From assembly GCA_048463395.1 (NCBI GenBank), contig DBFWPL010000019.1, forward strand, positions 2,668 to 66,667: a DNA stretch of 64,000 bases. The letters run 5' to 3'. The notes beneath the pieces were generated by a model. It was given only the letters and a program-made list of their open reading frames with translations, did not search any database and had not been told where the DNA came from. The position numbers and the translations under genes are program-made. Of this stretch, positions 29,472 to 47,319 are shown in pieces. The first letter of the stretch is position 1; the number at the start of each line of letters is the position of its first letter. This DNA comes from Alphaproteobacteria bacterium. GTDB lineage: Bacteria > Pseudomonadota > Alphaproteobacteria > RF32 > CAG-239.

Positions 29472-32400
29472 TGACGAGATTATATAAAATACTTTTTCTC
29501 TTAGTTGCCTTTTTATGTCTGAGTTTTTCTTTCGGTGGAACGGCGATGGCATTTATAGTGCCGCCGGGACCGGTTACACCGACCATAGATGGTCCGACGG
29601 ATGTTCAGTTTTCCTTAAAAGGTGTCGGTTCGGCAGCTACCAATATTCAGGCTCAGGCCAGTGCCTATATGCAGGAGCAAACCAAACTTATTAAAGCGGC
29701 CAAAAAGTCGTATTTAGACAAGTTTACCGGTTTTATGGGCGGATTATTCAAGAAAAAAGAAAAGAAAGCCATTGCCGGAACCAAGGAAATTAAAGAAACA
29801 AAAATCGCGGATATCTATGATCCTGAATCTGTTTATAAAGCAATGTATAAACTGTTTCTGGCCTATCCGACAGAAAAACAAGACTTAATGTCCTGCTATC
29901 GCGGAAAATCCGTGGAGTTTTATCAGGATACGGTAATTGAGGTTTATACTTCCGTTCGTCAGCTGGAAACACAATTGAAAGAGTTGGAAGTGGAAATTAA
30001 CGGCCTTTCTGAAAAGCTGGTGGCTGGCAAAGGCGGAGACGGGGCTGAAAGCAATGAGGATGACATCGGCGTCTGGAAAAACTATTATACGGCCTTTGAA
30101 ACTTTGGATGAGCTGCTTCAAATTACAGAAGAACTGATGGCGATGAAGGCTCAGTATGTGGCGACCAAAGCCGTATCTCAGACAATTGAACCGGCCGCCA
30201 AAGTGGACAAACAAAGCTCTTTGCTTGACGGTAAAATAACCGATAATGAAATTGTTCTGGCTGAAAATAAAACCGTTATCCGTACTTTTGGAGAAAAAGT
30301 TGTTTTAGCTCAAGTTTTATCCAAGAATACATCTGCCGTAAAGCAACAAACAATAGCACCTTCAACTGTGGGACTTATCGTCAAAACCCCGACCAGTCGG
30401 GCAGAAGCGGAAGCTGAAGCATTAACCAGGCAGAGAATAAATTTCGAAGCGGAAAACAATCTAACCCGTACGGTTTCTTTAAGTGCAACTTCTGCGGCCG
30501 AGGAAGAAGATGACGAAGATTATGAATATGATCCGGCAAATAACGGGTTTATGGATTTTGTAGATGCTCCGCCGTCTAACATGAAATCTCCGTTTGACGG
30601 CAATGAAGAAAAAATGGCCGAGCTTGAAAAATTGAACCCTGTCTATGAAAAATCACAGGAAGCAATGGAAGTTCATAACCTGATGAAGTCCCTTCCGTCT
30701 TATCGTGAGATGTTTGAACAATACGAACAAATGAAAAAACTGCATGAACAATCCCTGAAAATTTTGAAAGAGGCCGATCAGTGCAGTATACAGTTTTTAG
30801 GACGTTACTATAATAATCCGGAACAAGTTTGGACAGGTAAGCCTATCTCTGACAGCCAGATTAACGAGTATGATTTAAGAAGCGGTATTTCCGGTTGGGC
30901 GATTAAAAGTTTTGAAGTCGCCAAAGCTGAGCAAACCTCGCCGATTTCCATGGATGACTTGACTGAAACGGAAGTTGACGTGGATATTGATAATTCGGAT
31001 CTCAGTTCGATTGAAAAAAATAAAGAGAAGTATCAAAAAATGAGTGGCAGTGGGTTGGCAAATCCGAGCAAGGAAGAAGAGATAGAAAAAGTCGACCGTG
31101 AAACTTCAATGATAAACTGGAAAATCGGTGCCGAAGCGGCTTCTCTGATTGTGCAAGACCAATATGGCAGCAAACCGCAATGGGGAACGCCAAGCAAAAA
31201 GTTTCCGATTTGGAATGATCAGAAAACGTTTTATACCCAGTATATTGACGGCAAATACAATAATATCAAGGAATATCTGAAAAATGTCGATGTCAATGAT
31301 GTGGCTATTGAAATAGCTTTTAAGCTGAATGATTTGGTAAAAGATGCAGAAGAAAAAGCTTATAATGCACAAGAGCTGAATAAGCTGTCCGCTTTGATAA
31401 CGCAAAAGAAAAACGGAGAAGAAACCGTTTCCGCATCGGCATTGCAGACTCTTTTGGATAATAAGGAAAAATCTTTAAATGAGGCAAAACAGGCCAAAGA
31501 AACCCGTTTAGCCGGTTTGTTAACTCAAAAAGAGGCGATTAATGCCAAAATTGATAAAGCTTCCCAATATGTAAAGACATATAATCAGCGGATTAACCAA
31601 CTTTCTCAAGAAGCAATGGAAGCTCAAAACGAGCAGGAAACGCTGAATGATTTGGTACAGAGATTGGAAGAGGAAGAAGCTGAAAATGACAAAGAGCTTT
31701 TCTATACCGTAAAAGAGGAAGAAGAGTTTGACGTCGAAATCACGCCGGAAACCGAAAAAGAAACCGTAACTTATGAAACGGAATTAAAGGCGAATGTTCA
31801 AAAAATGGCTGCCCCGACGACAAAGGCAGCAGTTTCTTCCGCTCCTGCCGCCAATAAAACGGCAAAGGTAACAACGGTTCCTTCTAAAAATCTGAAACAG
31901 ATTAAGAAGACGGAAACCGTAGCGGTTAAGTCTATTGATAAAGCAAAACTTCAACGTCGTGAAGATTTGAAAAATCAGATGAAAAATGAGTTGAATGCAG
32001 CTTCTGAAGCCAATATTTCAGCTTCTGAATTTGATGAGTTGGAAGCGGCTCCCGTTTTAGAAAAAGCAGTTGGCAAAGTAAATAACAGCTTCAGAAAAAG
32101 AGCTGTCAGTCCTTTAGAAAAACAATCTTCTTATCGCCGTTTGGAAACGATTGTTTTGGCAGATGTCTTAAACAGCAATCAGGTTAGTGCTTTCAAAATG
32201 GACGCTTTAGACAGCATTGAGCAAATTAATGATGAAGCAAGGGTAAACAATGCCGCTAAAGCCGAGTTGAGAGATGCTTTGTCCGGACGTCGTCCGTTTA
32301 CCAAAGAAACCGTAACAACAATTTCGCTGCAGACTTCTGATGCCGTTCCGACCAAAACGGAATATAAAACAATCACAAAATTAGAAACAGCAGTGGTTGA

Positions 32401-34525: not shown

Positions 34526-35284
34526 ATGAACGAAGCAAATAACAGACTGGAAGGGACAAAAGTTTTATCCATAACCGATGCGACCGGAGTTCAGCGAGAA
34601 TTCGCCAGTGAAGTGGAACAGGAAGTATCTGGATTTAAGCTTAAGTATTATATGTGGTTGTCCCGCTTGTTTGTTTTGTTTGCAGTGGCGTCTTTGCTGC
34701 TGTTTATGAGTGCATCCCTGTCTTTGTTTAAGCTGGCTCCGCAGGTTACGGTAGAACCGTTTTTAATCATCCAGCAGGATTCTTCTGAAGGAATTGTCCG
34801 TAATGAGCCGATTGAATACAATATGGCTTCTAAAAATCAGTTGATGGAGACCTTTGTTCGTCAATATGTTTTGCTTCGTAATACGATTATTTATGATGAA
34901 AAAGAAATGATGACCCGCTGGTATGGCGGCGGCATGCTTAATTTTCTCTCTGCTCCGAGGGTCTTTTCCGATTTTGAACAATATCGCGACAGTATTTGGA
35001 GCAAAATGCGGGAAGATGAGCAAGTTCGGGAAGTCGAGATTATTTCTATCGGAAAGCTTGGCGGAGAAAGAAGTCCGGTGTGGAAAGTCGATTTCAAAAC
35101 GTATGATTTGTCTGCGGTGGACAGAGACCAGAAGACAAAAGCCCAAATTTTGACGGTTCGCTATTGGACAGCCTCCGTTACGGCCTATTTTGTTCGGGAA
35201 CGTGTGTTTGTCGGTCTTCGCTTAATCAATCCTTTAGGTTTTACTGTTACAAGATATTCACAAACAGAGGTCGAAATTTTCTAG
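34526..35284 (+). CDS. virB8: VirB8-family protein, paralog a
   Basis: 252 aa. Cytoplasmic N-terminus, one TM (LFVLFAVASLLLFMSASLSLF) and a periplasmic NTF2-like domain with FVRQYVLLRNT and YWTASV motifs. Confidence 0.7.
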   Translation: MNEANNRLEGTKVLSITDATGVQREFASEVEQEVSGFKLKYYMWLSRLFVLFAVASLLLFMSASLSLFKLAPQVTVEPFLIIQQDSSEGIVRNEPIEYNMASKNQLMETFVRQYVLLRNTIIYDEKEMMTRWYGGGMLNFLSAPRVFSDFEQYRDSIWSKMREDEQVREVEIISIGKLGGERSPVWKVDFKTYDLSAVDRDQKTKAQILTVRYWTASVTAYFVRERVFVGLRLINPLGFTVTRYSQTEVEIF

Positions 35285-35388
35285 CTTGTTGATAAGTTGG
35301 GGATTTTATTGGGATGATGTTAGACTTTTAATTTAAAAGAGTATAACGTCAACATATCTATAGATAGAATTATTGAAAGGGACCTTTA

Positions 35389-35577
35389 ATGTATAAAAGA
35401 TTTGTGATGCTTTTCCTCATCTTGCTGCTGACGGCCTGCGGAATTTTCGGTTCATATTATGAAGCCGAACCTGTTGGGGTTGGTAAAGGCGTGGACGAGC
35501 TGAAGTTGTCTCCGTGTGCTTGTATGCAGCTTGATTTGCCTAAAGATCTGCCCGATTGGTTTGTTGAAACAATCTAA
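35389..35577 (+). CDS. VirB7-like small lipoprotein
   Basis: 62 aa. Signal peptide with lipobox LTAC. Positioned between the VirB8 and VirB9 genes. Confidence 0.5.
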   Translation: MYKRFVMLFLILLLTACGIFGSYYEAEPVGVGKGVDELKLSPCACMQLDLPKDLPDWFVETI

Positions 35578-35598
35578 GATTAAGGAAGTTTATTCATA

Positions 35599-36333
35599 AT
35601 GGCAAATGCACTCGGCGGAAATAATACACAACAAAGATTAATCGGTAGCAGAGCTCAGTCTGCACCGAGAAATACTTCTCGTGCCAATGCGGATGTATTT
35701 GTTGCCAATGTGGCTGAAAAAAGATATTTGTGGACGGCTCGTGCTTTTGCGATTATCACGGCAATCAGTTTGTGCTGTAATGTCATTTTATTTTTAGCAA
35801 TTATGCAGGTTTTGCCGTTGTACCGTATTGAACCGTTTTTGTTGACGTTTCAAAATAGGCAGGAGCAGGTGTATAATATTCAGCCTGTCAAAGGCGATTT
35901 GGCTGATGAAAAAGCAATTACCGAAGTGTTTGTTCGCGAATATGTTCTGCTCCGCAGTTCATTTGATTTGGATATTCCGGAAATGGAGGCCCGTTGGATG
36001 CCGGGCGGCCCGATTCAGGAAATGTCTTCCGGTGCGGTTTACTCCGAATTCCTTGAAAAAACGGCCAAAAGAGCTCTGTCTATTATCCGCTCCAAGAGCA
36101 TGATAAGAAATGTTCGTATTTTGACGGTAAACGAACTGGGAAAAGGCTTATGGCAGGTGGAATACGAAACGCAGGATATGTATCCTGATTCGTCAACTCC
36201 GGAAATTAATTATTGGACGGCGTCTTTGCGGGTGGCTTATCGTAGGAAGAGTGTAAAATATGGCGAAAGGTTGAAAAATCCGGTAGGCTTTACAGTAGTT
36301 CGTTACTCACTGACATATAATAAAGTAAAATAA
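35599..36333 (+). CDS. virB8: VirB8-family protein, paralog b
   Basis: 244 aa. Same topology as paralog a, with FVREYVLLRSS and YWTASLRVAY motifs. Confidence 0.7.
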   Translation: MANALGGNNTQQRLIGSRAQSAPRNTSRANADVFVANVAEKRYLWTARAFAIITAISLCCNVILFLAIMQVLPLYRIEPFLLTFQNRQEQVYNIQPVKGDLADEKAITEVFVREYVLLRSSFDLDIPEMEARWMPGGPIQEMSSGAVYSEFLEKTAKRALSIIRSKSMIRNVRILTVNELGKGLWQVEYETQDMYPDSSTPEINYWTASLRVAYRRKSVKYGERLKNPVGFTVVRYSLTYNKVK

Positions 36334-36348
36334 AAGGTGTATTTCATA

Positions 36349-38040
36349 ATGGTTTTAAGAGCGGTTAAGATATTTTTTGTTGGGATGGTAATGCTGATAG
36401 CGGCCGGAAAAAATGCTTATTCTCAGGCAACTATGGGAAGTCTTGATCAAAATGCCGACCAAAGCCAGGGGCAGTATATGCCGATGAATATGGGGTATGC
36501 CGGATTTAATTCTTTGGGAATGGTGCAGAGTGCTTGGCTGGATCCGCTCCAGAATTTGGGGGAAGGGCAGTCTAAGCCGGCTTATTCCAGATATTATTGG
36601 TCTCCGGATTTGGTGTTGCCGATACGCCTTCGCGAAGGAATGATGACTTTGATTAATTTTCCGGAATGGGAAATGGTTGAAGATATGTTTATCGGTGATA
36701 ATTCCTCGTTTGACGGACAGATTACCGGTCCGAACACTATCTTGCTCTATCCTCGTAAGGGGGCTAACGTTGGTGTAGATACCAACATCATTATTTTCGG
36801 ACGTTCGGGAAACCGTTATGTTTTCTATGTTAAGAGCGAGGGTGTGAATACGGAACGTTTGACCAACTCCATTATTGATATTGACGTTATTGACGGCCCC
36901 TCGGGGTCGCGGGGTACCGGAGTAAACGGAACCCGCAGCAACGGCGGAAGAAGCGGGGTGAATGCCAGTTCTCTCAAGGGAGGAAGCGGTCTTTCGGTAG
37001 ATTCTACGTTTACCAAACGTTTTGGAAAAAATGACTGGATTAAAGAGATACCTCTGGATCCGACAAAGTTTAGATTTGATATTGAAGTTTACGTGCCGAA
37101 CCCTGATGATGTCGTGATTGCTCCGGAAAGAGTTTGGCGGGATGATATCTTTACCTATATCGATTTGGGCGAAAAAGCTCTGAATATGACACAGCGTCCG
37201 ATTGTAACGCTGATTGTGGAAAGAATTGAAGTGCCTGTTGGCTTTAGAACCAAAGGTCCGAATAATCGCTTGATTATTGTTGAGGGTATCGGCGATATGG
37301 TTATGAGGAACGGAAAACGTATTGTCTGTCTGAAAATGCGTCGTTCTGACGATTACGGTATGGAAATGGCAACCTATGCAACTGATTTTGAAGACAGTTC
37401 ATGGGATATTGCTCCGAAAATCCCTGGCGGACGTCAAGGCGGCGGACAAGGCGGAGCCGGATATGGCGGCGGTAACGGAGGTTTTGGCGGAGCCGGTTCT
37501 AACGAGGGATTTGATGAAGTCGGCGGAGATTCTCCTGGTGATTACGGAAATTATCCGGGAGCTCCGGGACAATATGACATTAAGGTCGGCAATAGCGAAA
37601 TTATTGCACGAAACAATGGTCAGGGGGGCGATGTCAGCGTCGGTTACCAGGGATCGGGACAACAAGGCGGAAACTTTGATTACTCAAAGATGCAGCGGAT
37701 TAGCAATAATCATAATTATAACAGCGGTGCTTTGGGCGGCAATGGTCAGTTCAGCTATGGTTCCGGATTCTCTGACAGTAGTTCCAACATCTCAATTGAG
37801 CTCGGAACAGATGCGGATGTCGGAAATCTTGAAAAATTATGGAGCGGTTTGACTAAGAAATATCCTGATATTCTCAATCGGTATGAACCGTTCTTCTCTG
37901 TAGATGCTCCGGCGGACGGGCAGGGTAAAGAATTGTTCCACTTACGAGTAGGACCGGTCGGTTCTCTTGATGACGGAGATTCCGTCTGCAGCAAACTCGG
38001 ACGAAACGGTGTATTTTGTAGTGTAGTCAGAACGCAATGA
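36349..38040 (+). CDS. VirB9/TrbG/CagX-like protein with Gly-rich linker and SPOR-like C-terminal domain
   Basis: Signal peptide, then a VirB9 N-domain (MMTLINFPEWEMVEDMFIGDNSSF...NRYVFYVKSEG). A G/Q/N-rich low-complexity region follows. The C-terminus FHLRVGPVGSLDDGDSVCSKLGRNGVFCSVV resembles SPOR peptidoglycan-binding domains. An ATG at 36349 is preferred over 36337. Confidence 0.6.
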   Translation: MVLRAVKIFFVGMVMLIAAGKNAYSQATMGSLDQNADQSQGQYMPMNMGYAGFNSLGMVQSAWLDPLQNLGEGQSKPAYSRYYWSPDLVLPIRLREGMMTLINFPEWEMVEDMFIGDNSSFDGQITGPNTILLYPRKGANVGVDTNIIIFGRSGNRYVFYVKSEGVNTERLTNSIIDIDVIDGPSGSRGTGVNGTRSNGGRSGVNASSLKGGSGLSVDSTFTKRFGKNDWIKEIPLDPTKFRFDIEVYVPNPDDVVIAPERVWRDDIFTYIDLGEKALNMTQRPIVTLIVERIEVPVGFRTKGPNNRLIIVEGIGDMVMRNGKRIVCLKMRRSDDYGMEMATYATDFEDSSWDIAPKIPGGRQGGGQGGAGYGGGNGGFGGAGSNEGFDEVGGDSPGDYGNYPGAPGQYDIKVGNSEIIARNNGQGGDVSVGYQGSGQQGGNFDYSKMQRISNNHNYNSGALGGNGQFSYGSGFSDSSSNISIELGTDADVGNLEKLWSGLTKKYPDILNRYEPFFSVDAPADGQGKELFHLRVGPVGSLDDGDSVCSKLGRNGVFCSVVRTQ

Positions 38041-41000
38041 GTAAAGAAGTATTAACACGTTCCGAAACTTATGTGAGAAAAACCAACCGCATTATTCTTG
38101 CGGTTGGTATCACTTCATTTGTAATCTTTATATTCGGTGTTATGCTTCTTATTCAAAGCAACGAGGTCGTTGATGATTATCAGGAACCTGTTTTTACGGA
38201 TAATGATGATGCTTTGAATATTGGCGAAGTCAAGCCTTTAGAAAATAATCTGGAGTTTGGAAATGTCGATGACGGAGAGATTCCGATTACGACAACCCCT
38301 AATCCCATTAATATGGGACAGGTAGTTTTGGGCACGGATGCCCGCAACGTACTGACAATCGGGACAAACGGCAAAGCATCAATCACGATTAGTTCCGTAC
38401 AATTGGCTGAACCTCCGTTTGACGGCTTCAGTTTCCATGACGATTGCAGCGGAAAAACGCTAAGGGGGAATGAGCATTGCGATATTACCATGTCTTGGGT
38501 GCCGATTGTTCCGGGAAACGTTCAAAATAACTTTATCGTTTCATGGCATGAATCAAACTTAAGCGTCAGCAATGCAAAATCTGAAAAAATTACAGTGGAC
38601 GGAAATGCCATTCGTAAAGAAGATTGTAATTTTTGTGAAACGGCTTTGCCTAAAGATGGCAATGATGAACAGAAAAATGCTTCTAAATTACGGGCAATTA
38701 TAGGGCCGAACGGAGAAATCATCGGTTATGCGGATGAAGACGGTTATGTTCGCGACAAAAACGGCAATATTATCGGTCGGGTCAACGCAAACGGCATGGC
38801 TGTTGATGAGGATGGTAATATTATCGGTGTCGCAGATAATCGAAAACTTGTGTATGACGAGTTTGGTAATGTTATCGGTTATGTAAATCCTGACGGAACG
38901 GTTGTTGATAAAGACGGCAATGTTATCGGAAGAATGCTTCCGGACGGAACCGTCGTTGACGCTAACGGCAATGTGATCGGCAAGGCGGTAGATGCCGGTT
39001 ATGTGTATGATAAAGACGGTAATATTATTGGTCGTGTTCTTCCGGACGGAACCGTCGTTGACATGGATGGCAATGTAATCGGCCGTTTGAACGAAAACGG
39101 CGAAGTCGTTGACGCCAATGGCAATGTGATTGGCTATGTCAGCAAACCGGGACGTGTGGCCGTTGATGAAAACGGTAATATTTTAGGCGTGGTTATGCCA
39201 AACGGAGCCGTTGTTGATGCTAATGGCAATGTGGTTGGTTATGTAGACGAGAACGGCAATGTTGTTAAAGACAAAACATTGGGAAGCAACCGCCGTTTTG
39301 CTTACGATAAAGACGGCAATATTATCGGTTATATTGATGAAAACGGCAATGTGATTGATGCCGACGGCAATATTATCGGTCGGATGTTGGAGGACGGAAC
39401 CATTGTCGATTTAGACGGTAATGTGATTGGCGAAGCCGGAGATGTTACTGTCGGTCCTCAGCGGCGTTTGGCATATGATAAAGACGGCAACGTAATAGGT
39501 TATATTGACGAGAACGGCAATGTCGTTGATTTTAACGGCAATATTATCGGAAAAATGCTTGAAGACGGTACCCTTGTTGACCTAGACGGAAATATCATTG
39601 GAAAAGCCGGAGAATTTGTCAATCTGGCATTGGATAAATATGGTAATGTCATTGGTTATGTCAAACCGGACGGAACGATTGTCGATAAAAACGGGAAAGT
39701 CATCGGTAAAGTGTCGGATATGACTGTCGGTCCTCAGCGGCGTTTGGCATATGATAAAGACGGCAACGTAATAGGTTATATTGACGAGAACGGTAATGTC
39801 GTTGATTTTAACGGCAATATTATCGGAAAAATGCTTGAAGACGGTACCCTTGTTGACTTAGACGGAAATGTCATCGGCAGAGCCGGAGAATATGTCAATT
39901 TAGCGTTGGACAAGAATGGAAAGGTTATCGGCTATGTTAGTGCGGATGGCAAGGTTTATGATTTGAACGGTAATGAAATAGGCTATATTGACGAGAATGG
40001 CAATATTGTAAGTAATGAGCGTTATAAAATCGGAGGTTTGGTTGAAACACAAATGATTCCAATAACCGCTTCGGGTGAAGTCTTAGGAACAGTCAACAAT
40101 AACGGTACGGTTGAGAATGACAGGCAACAGGTTGTAGGACGTATTCTGTCCAACGGCTTAGTAAAAGATCCGTCCGGTTCAAAAGTGATTGCCCGTTTAG
40201 TTCGGGGTGGTTTGGTTGTCGGTTATGGTTGTAAAAATATCGGTTATCTGGAAAGAGACGGAAAAATCCGCAAATCTAATCAGGATACGGGATATAAAGT
40301 CAATAGTAACGGGATTGTAACAGACAGTTCCGGAGCTTATATAGGGGAAGTTGTTTCTCCGGGAAAAGTTTTTGATAATTCCTGCACGCTTTTGGGTGAG
40401 GTCGGCACGGACGGTATTGTTCGCGGCGGTTCCAACAACTACGTCGGCTGTGTCAATCCGGACGGAACGGTCCTGGATGAAAAAGGCGATATTATCGGCG
40501 GTACGGTTAAAAGCGGAATAGCCCTTTCTTATGACGGAGAATATCTCGGTAAAGTTTCTTCGGACGGCTTGGTTATTTCTCCGGCCTTGCTTCCGGTCGG
40601 CTGTGTCGGAACCTACGGCGATGTTTTCAGCCGAAACGGCGGCTACATCGGAAAAATTTTAGAAAACAAATATGCTTTTGACCTGGACGGCAACTTCCTG
40701 AATATGGTCGGTGAAGACGGACGGGTTTATGTGGCCGGGCAGGCTCCGTCCAGATTATTGGCCAATAATCTGATTGTTGATGATAATAATACGATTATCG
40801 GTATGGCTATGGGTGAGAAAACAACAATTGTCAGTCCGGACGGCAAGGTTCTCGGACGTCTGTTCCCAGACGGATATGTTTACAGCGATAAAGGCGTGGC
40901 TGTCGGCAAAATCAGCGGCGACGGCATGAGCTTTTATAATAAGCAAATCGGCCGGCCGATGCCGAAAGGCGAAGTTGTTGATTTTAACGGCAAACGTCTC

Positions 41001-41897
41001 GGAATAGTCAGCGGAGACGGAACGGTAGTAAACCGTTTTGGCGAAACACTCGGTAAAATTGATGCCAAAGGGACATTGTTGGATTATAAGGGGGAATATA
41101 AAGGTGCAGCTTTGTTGCGAGGAGCCGCGATTGGTTATGACGGAGCTTATCTGGGATACAGTCTGGCTGACGGAAGTATTATTAATCTTGATGGAAAAAA
41201 TGAAGGAAAAGCCAGTGCGGATGGTAAGGTTTTAGATGATAAAAATAATGTCATCGGCGAGATTCTTCCGGAAAACATCGTAGTTGATATCTGGGGTAAT
41301 TATAAAGGCCGCGTAAACTCTCTGGGAGATGTGTTCGATTTGAAAAATGACAACATTACCGCTATTTTGCCGGGCGGTTCCACGGATAAAAACCTCAGTC
41401 TCTTGAAACGGGGAGCTGTCATAGACTTTGGCGGCAACGTTATCGGTTCCGTAGCTCCTGACGGACGGGTAATTGATACGGAAAATGTGGCAATCGGCAG
41501 AGTTCTGTCTGACGGAAACGTGATCAGCCGAGCTGGAAAATTAATCGGAGAAGTGGTTGACGGTGATATTGTTATTGATAACTCTGATAAAGTTGTGGGA
41601 TATGTTAATTTTGATGGTAAAATCATCGGCAAGGATAAGAGCGTTATCGGTCGAGCTTTATCGGGAGACTTGGCAATTGACAACAACGACAACATTCTGG
41701 GCAGAATTTATAAAATAGGGGCGACTATTTTAGGAAATGACGGAAACTACGTCGGACGTTTGTCTCCGGAAGGCGAAGTTATCGACGCAAACGGTAAGAA
41801 CATCGGCTACATCAAAAATAACGGCTCTTTTATAGATTTGGATAAAAAAGTATCGGGTTATGCCCTTCAGGAAGTGGCTAAAAACCGGAGGAACTGA
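38037..41897 (+). CDS. bitopic inner-membrane protein with giant array of 11-residue (xDxxGNVIGxV) repeats; N-terminal half of a split CagY-like VirB10
   Basis: 1286 aa. Cytoplasmic N-terminus plus TM (IILAVGITSFVIFIFGVMLLI). Then about 100 tandem degenerate 11-aa repeats (DKDGNIIGRVLPDGTVVDANGNVIG...). ATGA overlap with VirB9. Confidence 0.6.
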   Translation: MSKEVLTRSETYVRKTNRIILAVGITSFVIFIFGVMLLIQSNEVVDDYQEPVFTDNDDALNIGEVKPLENNLEFGNVDDGEIPITTTPNPINMGQVVLGTDARNVLTIGTNGKASITISSVQLAEPPFDGFSFHDDCSGKTLRGNEHCDITMSWVPIVPGNVQNNFIVSWHESNLSVSNAKSEKITVDGNAIRKEDCNFCETALPKDGNDEQKNASKLRAIIGPNGEIIGYADEDGYVRDKNGNIIGRVNANGMAVDEDGNIIGVADNRKLVYDEFGNVIGYVNPDGTVVDKDGNVIGRMLPDGTVVDANGNVIGKAVDAGYVYDKDGNIIGRVLPDGTVVDMDGNVIGRLNENGEVVDANGNVIGYVSKPGRVAVDENGNILGVVMPNGAVVDANGNVVGYVDENGNVVKDKTLGSNRRFAYDKDGNIIGYIDENGNVIDADGNIIGRMLEDGTIVDLDGNVIGEAGDVTVGPQRRLAYDKDGNVIGYIDENGNVVDFNGNIIGKMLEDGTLVDLDGNIIGKAGEFVNLALDKYGNVIGYVKPDGTIVDKNGKVIGKVSDMTVGPQRRLAYDKDGNVIGYIDENGNVVDFNGNIIGKMLEDGTLVDLDGNVIGRAGEYVNLALDKNGKVIGYVSADGKVYDLNGNEIGYIDENGNIVSNERYKIGGLVETQMIPITASGEVLGTVNNNGTVENDRQQVVGRILSNGLVKDPSGSKVIARLVRGGLVVGYGCKNIGYLERDGKIRKSNQDTGYKVNSNGIVTDSSGAYIGEVVSPGKVFDNSCTLLGEVGTDGIVRGGSNNYVGCVNPDGTVLDEKGDIIGGTVKSGIALSYDGEYLGKVSSDGLVISPALLPVGCVGTYGDVFSRNGGYIGKILENKYAFDLDGNFLNMVGEDGRVYVAGQAPSRLLANNLIVDDNNTIIGMAMGEKTTIVSPDGKVLGRLFPDGYVYSDKGVAVGKISGDGMSFYNKQIGRPMPKGEVVDFNGKRLGIVSGDGTVVNRFGETLGKIDAKGTLLDYKGEYKGAALLRGAAIGYDGAYLGYSLADGSIINLDGKNEGKASADGKVLDDKNNVIGEILPENIVVDIWGNYKGRVNSLGDVFDLKNDNITAILPGGSTDKNLSLLKRGAVIDFGGNVIGSVAPDGRVIDTENVAIGRVLSDGNVISRAGKLIGEVVDGDIVIDNSDKVVGYVNFDGKIIGKDKSVIGRALSGDLAIDNNDNILGRIYKIGATILGNDGNYVGRLSPEGEVIDANGKNIGYIKNNGSFIDLDKKVSGYALQEVAKNRRN
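39440..40000 (+). repeat. two near-identical ~280-bp tandem DNA repeats inside the repeat array
   Basis: gtcggtcctcagcggcgtttggcatatgataaagacggcaacgtaataggttatattgacgagaacgg... occurs at about 39447 and again at about 39727, with only a few mismatches over roughly 280 bp. Confidence 0.8.
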
Positions 41898-41899
41898 GT

Positions 41900-44800
41900 T
41901 TGAAACAGAATAGTTTTTATAGTTTTTTCAGCAAACTTGCCCAAACTTTCAGTGTTGCGGCAATTTGTTGTTTTATGTCTGTTTCTTTAGCTCAAGCTCA
42001 AGAAATTACGGCAATAGATTTTAACGGCGATTTGTTGGGTAAGGTTATTCCGGATGGTAAAGTCGTTAGTCTGGACAACCAATTGATAGGTAACGTTACC
42101 GCCGACAGCTTGATTGTAAATTTTGACGGCGAACTGATAGGTGGTGTCGTCCCGCAGGGAATTGCCATCGGTAACGATAATAAATTGCTGGGTAAGGTAA
42201 ACAATGACGGTTCCGTTCGTATGTCTTCCGGAAAAATTATCGGTAAAGTCTTGCCGACCGGCTTGGTTATTGATGATTATTTTGACGTTATCGGTGCAGT
42301 TTTGTTTCCGGGCTTGGTTTATTCAGACGGTGGACAGACAGTCGGACGTTTGACCGGAGACGGTTTGTATACTAACTTGCAGGGACAGGAAATCGGCTTC
42401 ATATCTCCTGACGGCTACGCTTACCGCCGTGTCGGGACGGATTATGTGCTTGACGGACGCCTGATTTCATCCAAGATGGTGGTTTCCGAAAGCGGAGAGT
42501 TTATCGGCAGTGTTACTCCGGGAGGAAATATTACAAATTTTGATGCTGCAACAATTGGTTTTATCAAGGCAAACGGTTTTGCCTATAATGAGAATAATAC
42601 AATTATCGGCCGTATTGTGCGTTCGGGATATGCTTTTGACAATTTCGGACGTTATATTGGTTTTGTAACTTATAACGGGGAAGTTCTGGATAAAGACAAA
42701 TTGGTCGGACATTTGCGTTCTGATGGTAAAATCGCCGGAGAAAAGGATGATATCATAGGTTTTAGCGTTGATATCTCGGCAACGGCAACGGATTCTACCG
42801 GAAAGTTTTTGGGACGCATTATGCCGGACGGAAAAATTTATCGGGCCAGAGAAGAAGCCGGAATACTGGGTGCGAGGGGCATTATCTATAATAAAGACGG
42901 CAATGCCGTCGGCCGTATTATTCAATCCGGTCCGGTTTTTGATTATAAAGGCTCCCTAGTAGCTCATGCATTGAAAAACGGTAAAGTCATTTTGTTGGAA
43001 GGTACTCCGGCAGGCTATGTTATCGGCAACAAGGCATTTGATAATAACGGACGTTTGAGCGGAGCGACAATGGATGAGCTTTTGGTTGTTAACGGCAATA
43101 ACAAGGCTTTGGGAATTGTCGGAATTAATGCTTCTGTCTTTGACGGAGAAGACCGCCGCATTGTTTCTCCGTTTGGATATGTTTTTAATACGGATGGCAG
43201 TATTAACGGTGCAGCTCTGCCTTTGGGGGCGATATACAATATCAGCGGTATTCCTGTTTCTGAAATTTCCCCGAACGGAGAATTGTATAACAAAGGGAGT
43301 CTGGCTCTGGGAAAATTAACTCAGACAGGTGTCAATATTGACGAGAGAAATAGGATTCTCGGTAAGAACGTTTGCCCTCTCTTTGCTGTGGATGAATCCG
43401 GAAATTCTCTGGGAAATATGTCAGAAGGTAATCTGGTTTTGAATAAAGGCTTGAAAATTACCGCGAAAATTTTGCCGGATAATTCCGTTGTTCCGACATC
43501 CTCCGATGATTCCGTCGATTTAAGCCCGAAAACGGGAAATGCTTATCAAAATAATATTGTAATAAGCTATACCGGAAACCTTTTGGGATACACAAATGAC
43601 GACGGCAGTGTCCGCGACTTTAACGGAAACCGCTTGGGGAAAGTTGTCGGACAGGGCATGGTTGTTGATAATAACGGGTCTGTTATCGGCGGACTGATTG
43701 GATTTGATACGGTAGTTGATGATGATTGTGTAGTCATCGGCGTGGTTGATCCGAAAGGTGAAATTAGAAATTTCCGTAATGTCAGCATGGGAAAGGTTTT
43801 GTTAAACGGACAGGCTGTTTCCGAAAACGGAAATTATATCGGTTATGCAGTTAATGCCCGTTCGGTAGTTGATTATAGCGGCAATATTCTTGGCGTTGCC
43901 TCTGCCGACGGTCGGGTGTTAAACTATGCGGACGAACAATTGGGATGCCTGAATAAGAAAAAACTTTTGAAAAATGCCGATAATACGATCATTGGCGGCA
44001 ATGTTGAATATTCTCCGGTTATGAATTTTAACGGAACGATTATCGGCCGTGGAATTTTGGATGGTTCTGTTGTCAATGATAAAAATATGGTTATCGGTTA
44101 TATGCAACCAGACGGCAATATAAACTCCAAAACCGGAGTTCCTATAGGAGATTTATTTAAATATAAGGTTGCTTTTGACGATAATAACAAATTTATCGGC
44201 CGGGTTTTGGAAAACGGAAAGGTTGTCAATGCCGGAAACGAAGAAATCGGACAAGTTGATTTTATCGGTTATGTTTTAGGCAAAGACGGAGCCAAAATCG
44301 GCTATGCATTATATGATTTTTATGTTTATGACAATAATTTCTCCGTTATGGGATATATTAACAAGGACGGCACGGTTCTTTCCCTGTTGGGGCAAAAACT
44401 CGGAACGCTTGACCGTGGTTTTCTGATTGATCGGGGCGGACAGGTTATCGGTCGCGGTAATCGTGATTTTTATATCCGTGATGAAAGTAATTTGGTTCTG
44501 GGTGAATTAAACTTGGATGGTGAACTGGTTAATGTTTCGGGAGAAATTATCGGCACCATAAACAAAGAAGGTAATATTTTGGACAGCGAAGGCAAAACGA
44601 TTGCCACGGCTAAACCTTTGCAGTTTTATAACCTGACGTTAGACCGCCAAAAAGTCTATGACGAAAACGGAAACCTCATAGGTTACGTAAACAAAGACGG
44701 CAGTGTTGTTGATGAAAACGGCAAACTTATCGGTCTGGTAAATGATGACGGCATTGTCATTTCGGCCAACGGCAACATCATTGGCGGAACATCCCTTGAC

Positions 44801-46327
44801 TGGTATGAAAAAGCCCCGCAAACAGCACCTAAAGACGACAAACTTCCTGAGGTTGGGGTCAATGAATATCAGGAAATCAAAGAACAATATCGCAAATCTT
44901 TGGGAATAGCTCTGACTCCGGACGGAGAATACCTTGGCGAAATTATGGAAGACGGCAATGTCGTGGACAAGAACGGAAAAGTCTTGGGACATAAAATGCC
45001 GGACGGGTTGGTTATAGATGATGACGGAACTTTAATCGGCATTGAAGAAGCCGGCAAACCGAACACGGACGGAATGTTTATTCCGGCGGGAACTTTCGGC
45101 AGCGGCGGAGCTTACGGCGTAGGTAACGGTTCCGGAACCAACTTGGGACCTGGAGGCGGTTTTGGTCCGGGAGAGCGTTACGACCCTCAGCGTGCGGCTG
45201 CTCTGGATGCTGCACAAAACCAGCGTCGTCAGGGAATGGCTGTCGGTAGAATCAGTACTAATATCAGAAAAGAAGCCTTTGACGGTTACCAGAAAAACTG
45301 GGATGAACAAGGTGTTTCCAAAGCCATTTCTTCATGGCGGGTTAAGTTAGACGAGATGATTTTTGCAGACAAACCTATTCCGGCCGTATTGTCTCGCTCT
45401 ATCGACAGCAACAACCCGACCCCGATTACCGCTTTTGTGGAAAGAAATATTTATGCTGAAGAAGGCCGAAACATCATTATTCCGGCAGGAAGCCGTCTGG
45501 TGGGAACTTTGGGCGGTCTGACCGGAACGACGGAAACCACGTCCCAATCTGCTAAAGTCCAAATTTCTTGGGAACGTTTGATTCGTCCAGACGGTGTTTT
45601 GTTTACCTTTGCCGGTATCACCGCGGACGCTCAAGGTCGTGGCGGTGCTCTGGGTTATTTGGATCAGCAGCTGTTTAAGAAATATACTTTGCCGATTATG
45701 ACCACGGCGTTGACCAGTTATACGTCTTATTTAATGGCTGATGACGACAAGAGCAGCGGAGAGACTGAAAGCTCCAGACAACAGGCCGCCAATGACGCTC
45801 GTCAAAACTTCCTGAATGAAATGAATCAGGTGTTTGAACAAATCTTGGCGGACAAGACAAACATCAAACCGCTGACTTATGTTCCTGCCGGTACCAGAAT
45901 TATTGTCTTCCCGAATGTTGATTTGTGGATGAGAACCGAAGAACGTGATGCGGAAGCAAGTACCGGACAGGGTAGTAAGAAAGATGTCTTTATTGATGAC
46001 GAAAAAGTAACCAATGACAGAAAACTGCAAGAAAACAAGCGTGCCGTCAATATCAGTGCAAGTTCTGCGTCTCAGGCCGGAAATGTCTTGTATGAAGCTG
46101 ATGATGCAGGTATTGAGGCTGTTGACGCTCCGCCTAAACTGATTGACGACAGCAGTGTCAAGAACAAGAAAAAAGCCAAAGGTCAACCGACCAATCCTGG
46201 TTTGGTAAGCGGCAGCACACCACCTCCGCCGCCGACGTATTCGACAACTCCGGGAGCCAATAACGCTTCCTCTGGAAGTTCCGGCAGCAGCCAAAACAGC
46301 GACAGTAGTGTTCCTCAATTATTCTGA
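41900..46327 (+). CDS. VirB10/TrbI/CagY-family protein: signal peptide + repeat array + C-terminal VirB10 domain
   Basis: TTG start 2 nt after the upstream stop. Sec-type signal SVAAICCFMSVSLAQA. About 1000 aa of the same repeat family. The C-terminal domain has NIIIPAGSRLVGTL...LTYVPAGTRIIVFPNVDL, the TrbI/VirB10 signature. Confidence 0.75.
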   Translation: MKQNSFYSFFSKLAQTFSVAAICCFMSVSLAQAQEITAIDFNGDLLGKVIPDGKVVSLDNQLIGNVTADSLIVNFDGELIGGVVPQGIAIGNDNKLLGKVNNDGSVRMSSGKIIGKVLPTGLVIDDYFDVIGAVLFPGLVYSDGGQTVGRLTGDGLYTNLQGQEIGFISPDGYAYRRVGTDYVLDGRLISSKMVVSESGEFIGSVTPGGNITNFDAATIGFIKANGFAYNENNTIIGRIVRSGYAFDNFGRYIGFVTYNGEVLDKDKLVGHLRSDGKIAGEKDDIIGFSVDISATATDSTGKFLGRIMPDGKIYRAREEAGILGARGIIYNKDGNAVGRIIQSGPVFDYKGSLVAHALKNGKVILLEGTPAGYVIGNKAFDNNGRLSGATMDELLVVNGNNKALGIVGINASVFDGEDRRIVSPFGYVFNTDGSINGAALPLGAIYNISGIPVSEISPNGELYNKGSLALGKLTQTGVNIDERNRILGKNVCPLFAVDESGNSLGNMSEGNLVLNKGLKITAKILPDNSVVPTSSDDSVDLSPKTGNAYQNNIVISYTGNLLGYTNDDGSVRDFNGNRLGKVVGQGMVVDNNGSVIGGLIGFDTVVDDDCVVIGVVDPKGEIRNFRNVSMGKVLLNGQAVSENGNYIGYAVNARSVVDYSGNILGVASADGRVLNYADEQLGCLNKKKLLKNADNTIIGGNVEYSPVMNFNGTIIGRGILDGSVVNDKNMVIGYMQPDGNINSKTGVPIGDLFKYKVAFDDNNKFIGRVLENGKVVNAGNEEIGQVDFIGYVLGKDGAKIGYALYDFYVYDNNFSVMGYINKDGTVLSLLGQKLGTLDRGFLIDRGGQVIGRGNRDFYIRDESNLVLGELNLDGELVNVSGEIIGTINKEGNILDSEGKTIATAKPLQFYNLTLDRQKVYDENGNLIGYVNKDGSVVDENGKLIGLVNDDGIVISANGNIIGGTSLDWYEKAPQTAPKDDKLPEVGVNEYQEIKEQYRKSLGIALTPDGEYLGEIMEDGNVVDKNGKVLGHKMPDGLVIDDDGTLIGIEEAGKPNTDGMFIPAGTFGSGGAYGVGNGSGTNLGPGGGFGPGERYDPQRAAALDAAQNQRRQGMAVGRISTNIRKEAFDGYQKNWDEQGVSKAISSWRVKLDEMIFADKPIPAVLSRSIDSNNPTPITAFVERNIYAEEGRNIIIPAGSRLVGTLGGLTGTTETTSQSAKVQISWERLIRPDGVLFTFAGITADAQGRGGALGYLDQQLFKKYTLPIMTTALTSYTSYLMADDDKSSGETESSRQQAANDARQNFLNEMNQVFEQILADKTNIKPLTYVPAGTRIIVFPNVDLWMRTEERDAEASTGQGSKKDVFIDDEKVTNDRKLQENKRAVNISASSASQAGNVLYEADDAGIEAVDAPPKLIDDSSVKNKKKAKGQPTNPGLVSGSTPPPPPTYSTTPGANNASSGSSGSSQNSDSSVPQLF

Positions 46328-46341: not shown

Positions 46342-47310
46342 ATGAGTTTTAAAGTATTGGAATCAGTGTTAAGGCCGTTATCTTATTGGTATAATCAGGA
46401 TAATATCGAAGAAGTTGCCATCAACCGCTCCGGTCAGATTTGGCTGCGTCTTCGCGGCAAAAGAGCTTATCCGTGGGTAATGTATAAAGATGAAAAATTA
46501 TCCAAAGAATATCTGGTGGATTTGCTCTATATCATTGCCAATACGTACGAGTTGCCGTTTGATCCGGTTCAGGGGACACCGGTCGTGTATGCGACAATTC
46601 CGGGAGAACATCGTTTTTCAGCTATTGCCGGTCGAAACGTTATGTATGACCAAGACGACCTGACCGGAGGTGTGGCGATTGCCATCCGTCTTCATAGTGA
46701 AGATGTTGCGTTCGGCTTGCAGGATTACGGTTTAAGCCAGGGCTCGGGGTTGCATAAGATTAATCCGTTAAAGGATATTAAAGACCCGGAAGACCCGTAT
46801 GAACGTCTTTTGCTCAGTTTAAAACGCGGTGATCATATTTTAGTCAGCGGTGCAACCTCAACCGGTAAAACCACGTTCTTAAATAACTTGCTTAAGATTT
46901 TGGACATCAATAAACGTATTGTAACGATTGAAGATACCCGAGAACTCTTGGTGCCGCACCCTAACCGCGTTCACCTTGTATTATCTCGTACCGAACAAAC
47001 CAATGCCATGGACTATAGCAAAATCATCGACTTGGTGGTACGTTTTACGCCTGATGCCATCATCGGCGGTGAGATTTCCACCAGCAATGCCGGAGCCTTG
47101 TGGGAACTGATGGGATCCGGACACGATAACTGTTTGGCAACAATCCACGCCGAGAGCTCCGAAGCTGCTTACAAGGCCTTTACCGACCGTATTTTGCACA
47201 CGTATCCGACAATTGACAGAGTAAAAACCATTGAAGAAATGCATAAAAAGCTCCGTGTCGTGCAAATTAACCGTGATGGCAACTTGCGTGCTATTACCGA
47301 AGTTACTTAA
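46342..47310 (+). CDS. virB11: VirB11/TrbB-family T4SS ATPase
   Basis: 322 aa. Walker A VSGATSTGKTTFLN, IIGGEISTSNAGALWELMGSGHDNCLATIHAES (His box) and an N-terminal domain of VirB11 type. Confidence 0.85.
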   Translation: MSFKVLESVLRPLSYWYNQDNIEEVAINRSGQIWLRLRGKRAYPWVMYKDEKLSKEYLVDLLYIIANTYELPFDPVQGTPVVYATIPGEHRFSAIAGRNVMYDQDDLTGGVAIAIRLHSEDVAFGLQDYGLSQGSGLHKINPLKDIKDPEDPYERLLLSLKRGDHILVSGATSTGKTTFLNNLLKILDINKRIVTIEDTRELLVPHPNRVHLVLSRTEQTNAMDYSKIIDLVVRFTPDAIIGGEISTSNAGALWELMGSGHDNCLATIHAESSEAAYKAFTDRILHTYPTIDRVKTIEEMHKKLRVVQINRDGNLRAITEVT

Positions 47311-47319
47311 AAATAAACA

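What the first reader, a model, noticed from the sequence alone, without database searches (positions are those of the whole stretch)
39440..40000. Recent ~280-bp tandem duplication inside the VirB10 repeat array: substrate for repeat-number variation
Two adjacent blocks of about 280 bp are almost identical at the DNA level, while the surrounding repeats are diverged. Such perfect tandem repeats are prone to RecA-mediated expansion and contraction. In CagY comparable rearrangements tune T4SS function.
Basis: seen in the sequence. Interest (0 to 1): 0.55.

Follow-up and report, generated by a model that had tools for sequence, protein, structure and literature searches.

The report
Copy-variable repeat module beside VirB10
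A 92-amino-acid repeat module in a giant type IV secretion protein of an uncultured gut alphaproteobacterium is present twice in tandem; the doubling is old rather than recent, its middle is kept almost identical by copying between the two units, and closely related strains carry only one unit, so the repeat number does vary in nature.

Summary
Observation: partly confirmed. There is a tandem duplication, but its period is 276 nt (39392-39667 / 39668-39943), not about 280, and it is 86% identical overall. Only a 147-nt core (39447-39593 vs 39723-39869) is near-identical (145/147). The next most similar repeat pair in 38037-46327 is 78%.

Location: the repeat lies in a separate 1286-aa gene (38037-41897) between virB9 and virB10, not in VirB10 itself. 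This gene has no TrbI domain. Its N-terminal module matches that of one-piece ~2200-aa VirB10 proteins in relatives, so it looks like the front half of a split giant VirB10.

"Recent duplication": not supported. Three lineages about 12-14% apart all carry the two units. The unit flanks group by orthology, while the cores group by genome (98-99% within, 85-92% between). Core dS is 0.06, against 1.2-1.9 in the flanks. That is gene conversion on an old duplication.

"Substrate for copy-number variation": supported. At least 15 contigs fetched, assembled by three or more programs, from strains 97% identical to a two-copy strain lack exactly 276 nt (1194 vs 1286 aa). VirB10 is 1475 aa in all twelve full-length variants.

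Eleven of 74 related species have their own high-identity in-frame repeats in the same zone. CagY-like functional tuning is untested. All data come from short-read assemblies.

The parts
39392..39667 (+). Copy A of the 276-nt (92-codon) tandem unit
   Evidence: the repeat finder family D6. 237/276 identical to copy B. Its 3' part (39594-39667) is orthologous to the same part in lineages M (L011) and X (L043) at 80-89%, but only 73% like copy B.
39668..39943 (+). Copy B of the 276-nt tandem unit
   Evidence: The B-type 3' part is retained in the one-copy alleles (L004: 97% to L011 copy B).
39447..39593 (+). Core A: near-identical (gene-converted) tract
   Evidence: 145/147 identical to core B, with exact runs of 71 and 63 nt. 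dS 0.064 and dN 0. Lineage-specific synonymous changes are shared by both cores in each of three lineages.
39723..39869 (+). Core B: near-identical tract
   Evidence: As for core A. Position 39794 differs between the window (T) and the ENA assembly of the same strain (C). Logan contig L003 starts at 39828, the k-1 overlap that ends the exact repeat. L043 has a 100-N scaffold gap here.
39291..39461 (+). Upstream related 57-aa unit (older, diverged copy of the core motif RRxAYDKDGN...)
   Evidence: 78% identical to both cores at lags 171 and 447. dS 1.36 versus core A.
38037..41897 (+). ORF1, 1286 aa: N-terminal membrane anchor, Ig-like (HYDIN/ASH-like) domain, then a long array of 17-aa beta-hairpin (beta-flower/DUF3659) repeats. 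It has no TrbI domain and is the putative front half of a split giant VirB10.
   Evidence: Pfam Bflower_2 7e-86 with no TrbI hit. HYDIN-like Ig domain, weak and below the gathering score. The N-terminal 230 aa match the N-terminus of 2200-aa VirB10 proteins at E about 1e-25. dN/dS 0.022 versus lineage M. Conserved as a separate gene in 74 species.
41900..46327 (+). ORF2, VirB10 proper, 1475 aa: signal-peptide-like N-terminus, beta-flower repeats, C-terminal TrbI domain
   Evidence: Pfam TrbI 1.2e-33 and Bflower_2 2e-59. 1475 aa in all 12 full-length members of its 90% cluster.
36337..38040 (+). VirB9 (CagX family) with a possible C-terminal SPOR domain; its stop overlaps the ORF1 start
   Evidence: Pfam CagX 6e-11; SPOR 2e-3, below the gathering score.
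46342..47310 (+). VirB11 ATPase
   Evidence: Pfam T2SSE 2e-21.
34526..36333 (+). Two VirB8 paralogues (34526-35284, 35599-36333)
   Evidence: Pfam VirB8 2.5e-16 and 5.7e-24.

Best explanation
What it is. The feature is an old in-frame tandem duplication of one 92-aa block of beta-hairpin repeats. It lies in ORF1, a 1286-aa membrane-anchored repeat protein encoded between virB9 and virB10 of a Rickettsiales-vir-like (rvh-like) type IV secretion cluster (several VirB8 and VirB4/VirB6-like genes). The host is an uncultured gut alphaproteobacterium (relatives are named Ca. Scatocola, 'Azospirillum sp. 51_20' and CAG:495).

Shown:
- The duplication predates the split of three lineages that now differ by 12-14% in DNA.
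- The outer parts of the two units have diverged to saturation at synonymous sites.
- The central 100-147 nt has been homogenised separately within each lineage.
- In one lineage both a two-unit allele (1286 aa) and an allele lacking exactly one 276-nt period (1194 aa) are common.
- The one-unit allele has the upstream unit's 5' part joined to the downstream unit's core and 3' part.
- One-unit alleles are nearly uniform in sequence, while two-unit alleles are diverse.

Inferred:
- The homogenisation is non-reciprocal recombination (gene conversion) between the two units.
- The short allele arose once, by unequal homologous recombination or replication slippage between the two units, with the junction at the 5' edge of the core. 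It then spread, with some later recombination.
- The event removes or adds one whole structural module. The 92-aa period equals five 17-aa hairpin pairs plus a 7-aa linker, about the size of a five-fold beta-flower domain. The protein would therefore stay folded and simply change in length.
- ORF1 acts with VirB10 as the envelope-spanning part of the secretion machine, because its N-terminal module is that of one-piece giant VirB10 proteins.

Not shown: whether the length change alters secretion or host recognition.
For: Anatomy: (period 276; core 145/147; next best pair 78%).

Gene context: (two ORFs; no TrbI in ORF1; VirB8/9/10/11 around it). (the ORF1 N-terminus is homologous to that of 2200-aa VirB10 proteins; locus L100 has virB9, a 2202-aa VirB10 and virB11 with no ORF1).

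Old duplication with conversion: (alignments of W = window, M = L011, X = L043); the 5' and 3' parts of the unit group A with A (0.78-0.89) and B with B (0.82-0.87) across lineages, and A with B at only 0.58-0.77. The 98-nt core is 0.98-0.99 within a genome and 0.85-0.92 between lineages; dS is 0.064 in the core, 1.25 and 1.92 in the flanks, and 0.95 between W and M orthologues.

Copy-number polymorphism. ORF1 is 1194 aa, or single-core where the contig is cut short, in L004-L010 and L012-L019, from MEGAHIT, SPAdes, Logan and other assemblies. It is 1286 aa in L011/L022 and the window. The gap is exactly 276 nt. L004 vs L011 is 97.2% identical.

Independent support for the two-copy state: Logan k=31 contigs L020, L021, L101 and L102, from four different runs, begin with the 30-mer that ends L011's exact A/B repeat and continue with the B-specific base. 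L003 does the same in the window's lineage. Logan contigs of one-copy strains run straight through.

Polarity and single origin of the short allele: hybrid structure; haplotype table.

Real protein under constraint: dN/dS 0.022.

Module: the AF2 model is all-beta, with pLDDT above 90 over parts of the units, and its strand pattern repeats every 92 residues. The beta-flower is described as about 96 residues and ten strands in PMC10584680.

Generality: 11 of 74 species have repeats at least 90% identical over 120 nt in ORF1. All start 1291-1601 nt into the gene, with periods of 150-645 nt, all multiples of 3.
Against: All sequences are short-read metagenome assemblies. Bubble-popping could make the two cores look more alike than they are, and copy number above two could be collapsed. 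L043 has a scaffold gap of unknown size exactly in core B.

The region just upstream of the indel (about 38840-39540) is 87-91% identical between the one-copy and two-copy alleles of lineage M, against 96-100% elsewhere. The two alleles may therefore have been exchanged by recombination from a more distant strain rather than generated in situ. This leaves the polarity argument less direct.

One origin for all one-copy alleles means there is no evidence of frequent switching.

The claim 'one unit = one closed beta-flower domain' rests on size and secondary-structure periodicity only. I could not inspect coordinates, and Pfam could not place domain boundaries.

No functional data exist for this system.
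Confidence: 0.78

Rival explanations
1. Recent tandem duplication. A 276-nt segment was duplicated recently in this strain. The near-identity reflects youth, and the lower identity at the edges reflects imprecise boundaries.
For: The core is 98.6% identical while everything else in the array is at most 78%. Strains without the second unit exist.
Against: A fresh duplication would be near-identical over all 276 nt, but the outer 129 nt are 60-80% identical with dS above 1.2. The second unit's unique parts are present and orthologous in lineages 12-14% diverged. Each lineage has its own core sequence shared by both copies. Under this reading that would need three independent duplications with identical end points.
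Confidence: 0.04
2. Assembly artefact. The duplication, or the near-identity of its cores, or the one-copy allele, is produced by short-read assemblers handling a repeat (false expansion, consensus homogenisation or collapse).
For: Contigs often end in this region (L003, L014, L015, L020, L021, L101, L102). L043 has a 100-N gap in core B. Two assemblies of the same strain differ at one base inside core B. Exact repeats of 63-71 nt exceed the largest k-mer size that, from my own knowledge, metaSPAdes uses by default (55).
Against: Unit 2 contains about 130 nt of unique sequence (60-80% to its paralogue) that must exist in the genome, and it is absent from one-copy contigs. The two-copy structure was recovered by different assemblers in three diverged lineages. 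One-copy alleles come from MEGAHIT k141, SPAdes, other scaffolders and Logan k31 unitigs. Logan unitigs break rather than collapse at repeats, and they do break in two-copy samples at the predicted k-1 position. One-copy alleles also carry their own diagnostic substitutions (ATTATAGG vs ATTATCGG). Some smoothing of the cores remains possible.
Confidence: 0.07
3. The one-unit state is ancestral in lineage M. The two-unit allele of L011-type strains was imported by homologous recombination from another lineage, so the polymorphism reflects allele exchange rather than local expansion or contraction.
For: The L011 and L004 alleles are unusually diverged (84-91%) for about 700 nt upstream of the indel, though 96-100% elsewhere. 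L014 is a mosaic of the two haplotypes.
Against: Two-unit alleles in M are more diverse than one-unit alleles, as expected if the two-unit state is older. Neither W nor X is the donor: L011's unit 2 is 80-82% identical to theirs. The one-unit allele is an A/B hybrid, as expected from a deletion between the units. A deletion or duplication between these repeats must in any case have happened somewhere in the species complex.
Confidence: 0.1
4. The identity of the cores is maintained by selection on the nucleotide or protein sequence, not by recombination between the copies.
For: The core encodes the most regular hairpin repeats, and ORF1 is under strong purifying selection (dN/dS 0.022).
Against: Purifying selection on the protein does not hold synonymous sites. 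Core dS is 0.064 versus 0.95 between orthologues. The synonymous states differ between lineages but are shared by both copies within each (GCA/GCT/GCG; GTCGTT/GTTGTT/GTAATA). That is the signature of conversion.
Confidence: 0.01

Closest known systems
Helicobacter pylori CagY (VirB10 orthologue) repeat regions (FRR/MRR)
   Same: Both are type IV secretion envelope components of the VirB10 lineage that carry a very long internal repeat array. Recombination between direct DNA repeats gives in-frame length variants that coexist in natural populations (Aras 2003, PMC2194252; Barrozo 2013, PMC3585145; Skoog 2018, PMC5954226).
   Different: CagY is one polypeptide that includes the TrbI domain. Here the variable repeat is in a separate gene without TrbI. 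CagY repeats are alpha-helical modules (title of Delahay 2008, PMC2581425; listed). These are beta-hairpin repeats. cagY has 'an extraordinary number' of direct repeats, whereas this strain has one pair above 80% identity. For CagY the variants are shown to change secretion and to arise during infection. Here there are two alleles, the short one apparently of single origin, and no functional data.
Concerted evolution of intragenic tandem repeats by gene conversion and unequal crossing-over (general phenomenon, e.g. bacterial surface-protein repeat arrays)
   Same: Paralogous units within a genome are more alike than orthologous units between lineages, over a bounded tract. Copy number changes by whole periods and in frame.
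   Different: Only two units are involved and only about half of each unit is homogenised. The tract borders differ between lineages: 39447-39593 in the window, about 39468-39565 in L011.
Beta-flower proteins (Pfam PF21784/PF21785, clan CL0395; Durairaj et al. 2023, PMC10584680)
   Same: There are strong Pfam matches (Bflower_2 7e-86, 13 stretches). The hairpin tips carry the [DNEQ]xxG motif. The 92-aa unit is close to the 96-residue five-fold flower.
   Different: The beta-flower described in the paper is a 96-residue domain, and some family members are lipoproteins. Here tens of hairpins form kilobase-long arrays inside T4SS proteins. Whether they close into successive flowers or form an extended sheet was not established.
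One-piece giant VirB10 proteins (~2200 aa) of related uncultured Alphaproteobacteria (e.g. P0036, locus L100)
   Same: They share the N-terminal anchor plus Ig-like module (27-30% identity, E about 1e-25), the same repeat family, the same C-terminal TrbI domain (41-46%), and the same position between virB9 and virB11.
   Different: In the window's clade these parts are in two genes (1286 + 1475 aa). The second gene has its own signal-peptide-like N-terminus. This arrangement is conserved in at least 74 species.

Membership tests
VirB10 / TrbI family (PF03743) | C-terminal TrbI beta-barrel domain in the protein that carries the repeat | tested here: not met
   ORF1 (38037-41897) has no TrbI hit at E <= 0.01. 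The TrbI domain is in the next gene (41900-46327, E 1.2e-33).
VirB10 / TrbI family (PF03743) | Homology of the N-terminal anchor region to bona fide VirB10 proteins, and position between virB9 and virB11 | tested here: met
   ORF1 residues 1-230 align to residues 1-227 of 2200-aa TrbI-containing proteins (E 1e-25 to 1e-11). In L100 such a protein sits alone between virB9 and virB11.
CagY-type variable repeat region | Repeats lie within the VirB10 orthologue itself | tested here: not met
   The repeats lie in a separate ORF with a conserved stop and a restart 2 nt later in all strains and 74 species.
CagY-type variable repeat region | Large number of long direct DNA repeats able to recombine | tested here: not met
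   There is one pair at 98.6% over 147 nt. All other pairs are at most 78%.
CagY-type variable repeat region | In-frame length variants among natural strains produced at the repeats | tested here: met
   1286 vs 1194 aa, a gap of exactly 276 nt at the repeat, among strains 97% identical in the gene.
CagY-type variable repeat region | Alpha-helical repeat modules | tested here: not met
   The AF2 model of residues 395-700 is all beta-strand, and Pfam assigns beta-flower.
CagY-type variable repeat region | Repeat rearrangement changes T4SS function or immune recognition | not testable with these tools
   The organism is uncultured and there are no functional data.
Gene conversion / concerted evolution between tandem paralogous units | Within a bounded tract, paralogues within a genome are more similar than orthologues between genomes, while flanking parts show orthology | tested here: met
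   Identity matrices for the 5' part, core and 3' part in three lineages. dS contrast 0.064 vs 1.2-1.9.
Beta-flower (PF21785 Bflower_2) | Pfam match above the gathering score | tested here: met
   283.9 bits against a cut-off of 38, in 13 stretches.
Beta-flower (PF21785 Bflower_2) | The 92-aa duplicated unit forms one closed five-fold barrel | tested here: inconclusive
   Size, five GNxIG hairpin pairs and a 92-residue secondary-structure period fit. Coordinates could not be inspected, Pfam boundaries are ambiguous, and the PDB fold search was uninformative (TM <= 0.16).
RecA-mediated expansion/contraction | Dependence of the rearrangement on RecA | not testable with these tools
   From my own knowledge, exact runs of 63-71 nt exceed the usual minimal length for RecA-dependent recombination, and RecA-independent slippage between close tandem repeats is equally possible.

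The most novel reading that the evidence does not exclude
ORF1 and VirB10 of this widespread gut alphaproteobacterial clade form a split, giant, beta-flower-repeat envelope component of the T4SS. A defined zone (about 1.3-1.6 kb into ORF1) repeatedly gains, loses and homogenises whole modules in many species. Module number in that zone would be a selected, tunable property (length or reach of the apparatus, or antigenic/host-interaction variation). That would make it a beta-repeat analogue of CagY in commensals.
Probability: 0.15. Interest if true: 0.7.

Novelty: new member of a known kind. Interest (0 to 1): 0.42.

Why it matters
Until now, variation in the repeat number of a VirB10-lineage protein has, to my knowledge, been worked out only for H. 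pylori CagY. In this window a different repeat type (beta-hairpin/beta-flower) in a different phylum-level setting shows the same population-genetic signs: bounded gene conversion, whole-module in-frame indels that are common among close strains, and a hot zone shared by many species. The setting is a set of uncultured gut Alphaproteobacteria with rvh-like T4SS. If module number affects function, it would extend the CagY principle to commensal bacteria of animal guts. It would also give a first functional handle on the beta-flower repeat, whose role is unknown.

On the practical side, this locus is a recurrent break point or collapse risk in short-read MAGs.

Tried and rejected
- TRF at default settings missed the 276-nt period and reported only a 171-nt period.
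- Pfam scans of single units could not place domain boundaries, because every hairpin matches several profile positions.
- The Foldseek search of the AF2 model against the PDB gave only spurious low-TM hits (TMq <= 0.16). No solved analogue was found, and I did not spend further fold searches.
- The exact-pattern scan of JGI metagenome contigs for the core 30-mer returned one locus from a distant species (74% identity) and no extra strains.
- Literature searches for 'RF32 + type IV secretion' and 'DUF3659' found nothing relevant.
- The listing of cluster members reported ORF1's exact sequence as absent, although look-up of encoding contigs found it. I worked around this by using the VirB10 cluster members to reach neighbouring ORF1 alleles.
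- I considered and rejected four readings: a recent duplication; selection alone as the cause of core identity; the stop between ORF1 and ORF2 being a sequencing error or pseudogene (it is conserved in all strains and 74 species, and ORF2 has its own signal-peptide-like start); and high-frequency phase-variation-like switching (all one-copy alleles share one haplotype).
Full report
**1. What is in the sequence**

- ORF1, 38037-41897, 1286 aa. It starts with a short cytoplasmic tail and one membrane helix.
- ORF2, 41900-46327, 1475 aa. It starts with a signal-peptide-like sequence.

Pfam finds the TrbI (VirB10) domain only in ORF2 (E 1.2e-33). Both proteins are full of beta-flower/DUF3659 17-aa hairpin repeats: Bflower_2 scores 7e-86 in ORF1 and 2e-59 in ORF2.

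The neighbours are two VirB8 genes, a VirB9 (CagX family, with a weak SPOR match), a VirB11 and, further upstream, a VirB4-like gene. The finding therefore lies in ORF1, not in VirB10 proper.

**2. The observation**

- A tandem repeat is present, with a period of 276 nt (92 codons). The best register is 39392-39667 vs 39668-39943, 237/276 = 86%.
- Only a 147-nt core (39447-39593 vs 39723-39869) is nearly identical: 145/147, with exact runs of 71 and 63 nt.
- Among all pairs of 147-nt windows in the two genes this is an isolated outlier. The next best is 78% (an older related unit at 39294), and the rest are at most 67%.
- The repeat is therefore real and far beyond background, but it is half as long as described.

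**3. Origin of the window and relatives**

The window matches a 70-kb metaSPAdes contig of a gut metagenome (ENA ERZ14651210 NODE_277). In the 23.9-kb locus L001, which covers window 28037-51897, the two differ at a single base, and that base (39794) lies in core B. Further downstream they also differ by a 24-nt indel near 52495 (section 9).

GTDB representatives with related loci are uncultured gut Alphaproteobacteria: water deer, chicken, human and ruminant MAGs named Ca. Scatocola, 'Azospirillum sp. 51_20' and CAG:495.

The VirB10 protein belongs to a 90%-identity cluster of 13 sequences, and all 12 full-length ones are 1475 aa. I used these to fetch the neighbouring ORF1 from many samples.

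Three lineages emerge.
- W: the window.
- M: L004-L022, L101 and L102, which are 98-100% identical to each other downstream of the repeat.
- X: L043.

The lineages are 86-88% identical to one another in ORF1. Between W and M, dS is 0.95 and dN/dS is 0.022, so ORF1 is a real protein under strong constraint.

**4. The duplication is old and its core is gene-converted**

All three lineages have the two-unit structure, aligned colinearly.

I split the unit into a 5' part, a core and a 3' part.

| Part of unit | A with A across lineages | B with B across lineages | A with B |
|---|---|---|---|
| 5' and 3' parts | 0.78-0.89 | 0.82-0.87 | 0.58-0.77 |

| Part of unit | Within a genome | Between lineages |
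|---|---|---|
| 98-nt core | 0.98-0.99 | 0.85-0.92 |

- The outer parts thus group by orthology and the core groups by genome.
- Both cores of a genome share lineage-specific synonymous states: GCA / GCT / GCG, AACGTAATA / AATGTCATC, GTCGTT / GTTGTT / GTAATA.
- Within the window, dS between the copies is 0.064 in the core, but 1.25 in the 5' part and 1.92 in the 3' part.
- The borders of the identical tract differ between lineages: 39447-39593 in W, and about 39468-39565 in L011.

This is the classical signature of repeated gene conversion on an old duplication, not of a recent duplication.

**5. Copy number does vary**

- In lineage M the ORF1 of L011/L022 is 1286 aa.
- In L004-L010, L012, L013, L016 and L017 it is 1194 aa. 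L014, L015, L018 and L019 are truncated contigs that still show a single core.
- The alignment has one gap of exactly 276 nt at the repeat and no other indel.
- L004 and L011 are 97.2% identical in ORF1.
- The short allele has the A-type 5' part joined to a B-type core and 3' part. This is the expected product of unequal recombination or slippage between the units, with the junction at the 5' edge of the core.
- One-copy alleles share a nearly uniform haplotype. Two-copy alleles are diverse. One contig (L014) is a mosaic.
- I infer that the short allele is derived, arose once and has spread. There is no sign of frequent switching.
- A caveat: the approximately 700 nt upstream of the indel are unusually diverged (84-91%) between the two M alleles. 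Allele exchange by recombination is therefore part of the history.

**6. Is it an assembly artefact?**

The region is clearly hard to assemble.
- Several contigs end in it.
- L043 has a 100-N gap in core B.
- Two assemblies of the same strain disagree at one core base.

Three points argue against an artefact.
- The second unit contains about 130 nt of unique sequence, recovered in three diverged lineages by different assemblers.
- One-copy alleles were produced by MEGAHIT (k141), SPAdes, other scaffolders and Logan (k31).
- Logan unitigs behave as predicted. In one-copy samples they run through the region. Five contigs (L003 in W; L020, L021, L101 and L102 in M, from different runs) start with the 30-nt k-1 overlap that ends the exact A/B repeat, and then continue with the B-specific base.

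The two-copy and one-copy states are therefore both real. What remains uncertain is the exact number of differences between the cores, and whether any strain has more than two units.

**7. What ORF1 is**

- Its first 230 residues carry the membrane anchor and a weak HYDIN/ASH-like Ig domain.
- They align end to end with the N-termini of approximately 2200-aa proteins of related Alphaproteobacteria that finish with a TrbI domain (E 1e-25 to 1e-11).
- The C-terminal 450 residues of ORF2 align with the ends of those proteins at 37-46% identity.
- In locus L100 such a 2202-aa VirB10 lies alone between virB9 and virB11.
- ORF1 plus ORF2 therefore correspond to a split giant VirB10. The split is conserved in at least 74 species, with ORF1 of 1041-1728 aa and VirB10 of 1192-2106 aa (stop-to-stop lengths, some contigs truncated).
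As a statement about the gene it is wrong.

**8. Module and hot zone**

- The 92-aa unit contains five GNxIG hairpin pairs (5 x 17 aa) and a 7-aa linker (TVGPQRR region).
- An AF2 model of residues 395-700 (mean pLDDT 77, above 90 over much of the units) is all-beta, and its strand pattern repeats every 92 residues.
- The five-fold beta-flower is described as about 96 residues with ten strands (PMC10584680).
- I infer, but did not prove, that the indel adds or removes one whole module.
- Across 74 species, 11 ORF1 orthologues contain their own direct repeats at least 90% identical over 120 nt (7 of them at least 97%).
- All 11 begin 1291-1601 nt into the gene, the same zone as here (1410 nt).
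- Their periods are 150, 159, 198, 258, 276, 324, 330, 480 and 645 nt, every one a multiple of 3.
- One species (L053) appears to have three copies.
- Four or five species have similar repeats in VirB10, 2.7-3.1 kb into the gene.
- So the zone is a conserved hot spot of module duplication and homogenisation. Near-identical repeats are probably under-counted in short-read MAGs.

**9. Comparison with known systems**

The closest analogue is H. pylori CagY. There, recombination among many direct repeats yields in-frame variants that alter secretion and immune recognition (PMC2194252, PMC3585145, PMC5954226).

Shared with CagY:
- VirB10 lineage;
- a huge repeat array;
- in-frame natural length variants at the repeats.

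Different from CagY:
- the variable gene is separate and has no TrbI domain;
- the repeats are beta-hairpin rather than alpha-helical (PMC2581425);
- there is one high-identity pair in this strain rather than many;
- the short allele has a single origin;
- there are no functional data.

It is therefore not a member of a CagY family. It may work in a similar way, but this is untested. I found no literature on this T4SS or on beta-flower arrays in VirB10.

A side observation: the window and the ENA contig of the same strain also differ by a 24-nt indel in a poly-lysine tract of another gene near 52495.

**10. Verdict**

- 'Recent duplication' is rejected in favour of an old duplication with gene conversion.
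- 'Substrate for copy-number variation' is confirmed by natural alleles.
- 'VirB10' and 'CagY-like tuning' are, respectively, imprecise and untested.
- This is a new example of a known kind of process, in an undescribed and rather unusual T4SS component. Interest is moderate.

Noticed in passing
window 38037-46327; locus L100 9001-15609: ORF1 (anchor + Ig-like domain + repeats) and ORF2 (signal peptide + repeats + TrbI) together correspond to a one-piece 2202-aa VirB10 in a related alphaproteobacterium. The split into two genes is conserved in at least 74 species.
   Followed up: partly
loci L037, L039, L041, L048, L053, L058, L066, L067, L070, L098 (ORF1 orthologues, 1291-1601 nt from ORF start): Independent high-identity (90-100%) in-frame tandem repeats with different periods (150-645 nt) occur in the same zone of ORF1 in other species. 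L053 seems to have three copies (lags 324 and 648).
   Followed up: partly
loci L024, L025, L046, L085 (and L045), about 2.7-3.1 kb into the VirB10 gene: In some species VirB10 itself carries 96-100% identical tandem repeats of 153-180 nt. In the window's species VirB10 is 1475 aa in every full-length variant.
   Followed up: no
window about 52495 (minus-strand ORF 50665-53541, 958 aa): The window and the ENA contig of the same strain differ by a 24-nt indel in a poly-lysine (AAA/AAG) tract. This protein is 939-989 aa in related strains and has no Pfam match.
   Followed up: partly
window 39794: This is the only base difference between the window and ENA contig NODE_277 in 23.9 kb upstream of the poly-Lys indel. 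It lies inside core B (T vs C, synonymous). It is either conversion heterogeneity in the population or repeat-assembly noise.
   Followed up: partly
window 36337-38040: The VirB9 homologue has a roughly 230-aa C-terminal extension with a weak SPOR (peptidoglycan-binding) match (E 2e-3, below the gathering score). Its stop codon overlaps the ORF1 start (ATGA).
   Followed up: no
window 29468-34510: The 1680-aa ORF upstream of virB8 has no Pfam hit (it sits where VirB6-like genes lie in rvh clusters). It also varies in length among close strains: 1680, 1686/1687, 1851 and 1855 aa.
   Followed up: no
window 47311-47988 vs L004 13466-15646: Gene content downstream of virB11 differs. Many lineage-M strains have a 726-aa minus-strand ORF there, which is absent from the window (only a 75-aa ORF is called) and from L017, L018, L020 and L021.
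   Followed up: no
window 55874-59656 (minus strand): A 1260-aa protein has a Peptidase_M23 domain and a weak VgrG3-like C-terminal match. It may be a cell-wall hydrolase associated with the secretion locus.
   Followed up: no
window 35389-35577 region (62-aa ORF called in relatives between the two virB8 genes): A small conserved ORF between the VirB8 paralogues is called in every related contig. I guess it could be a VirB7-like component, but I did not examine it.
   Followed up: no
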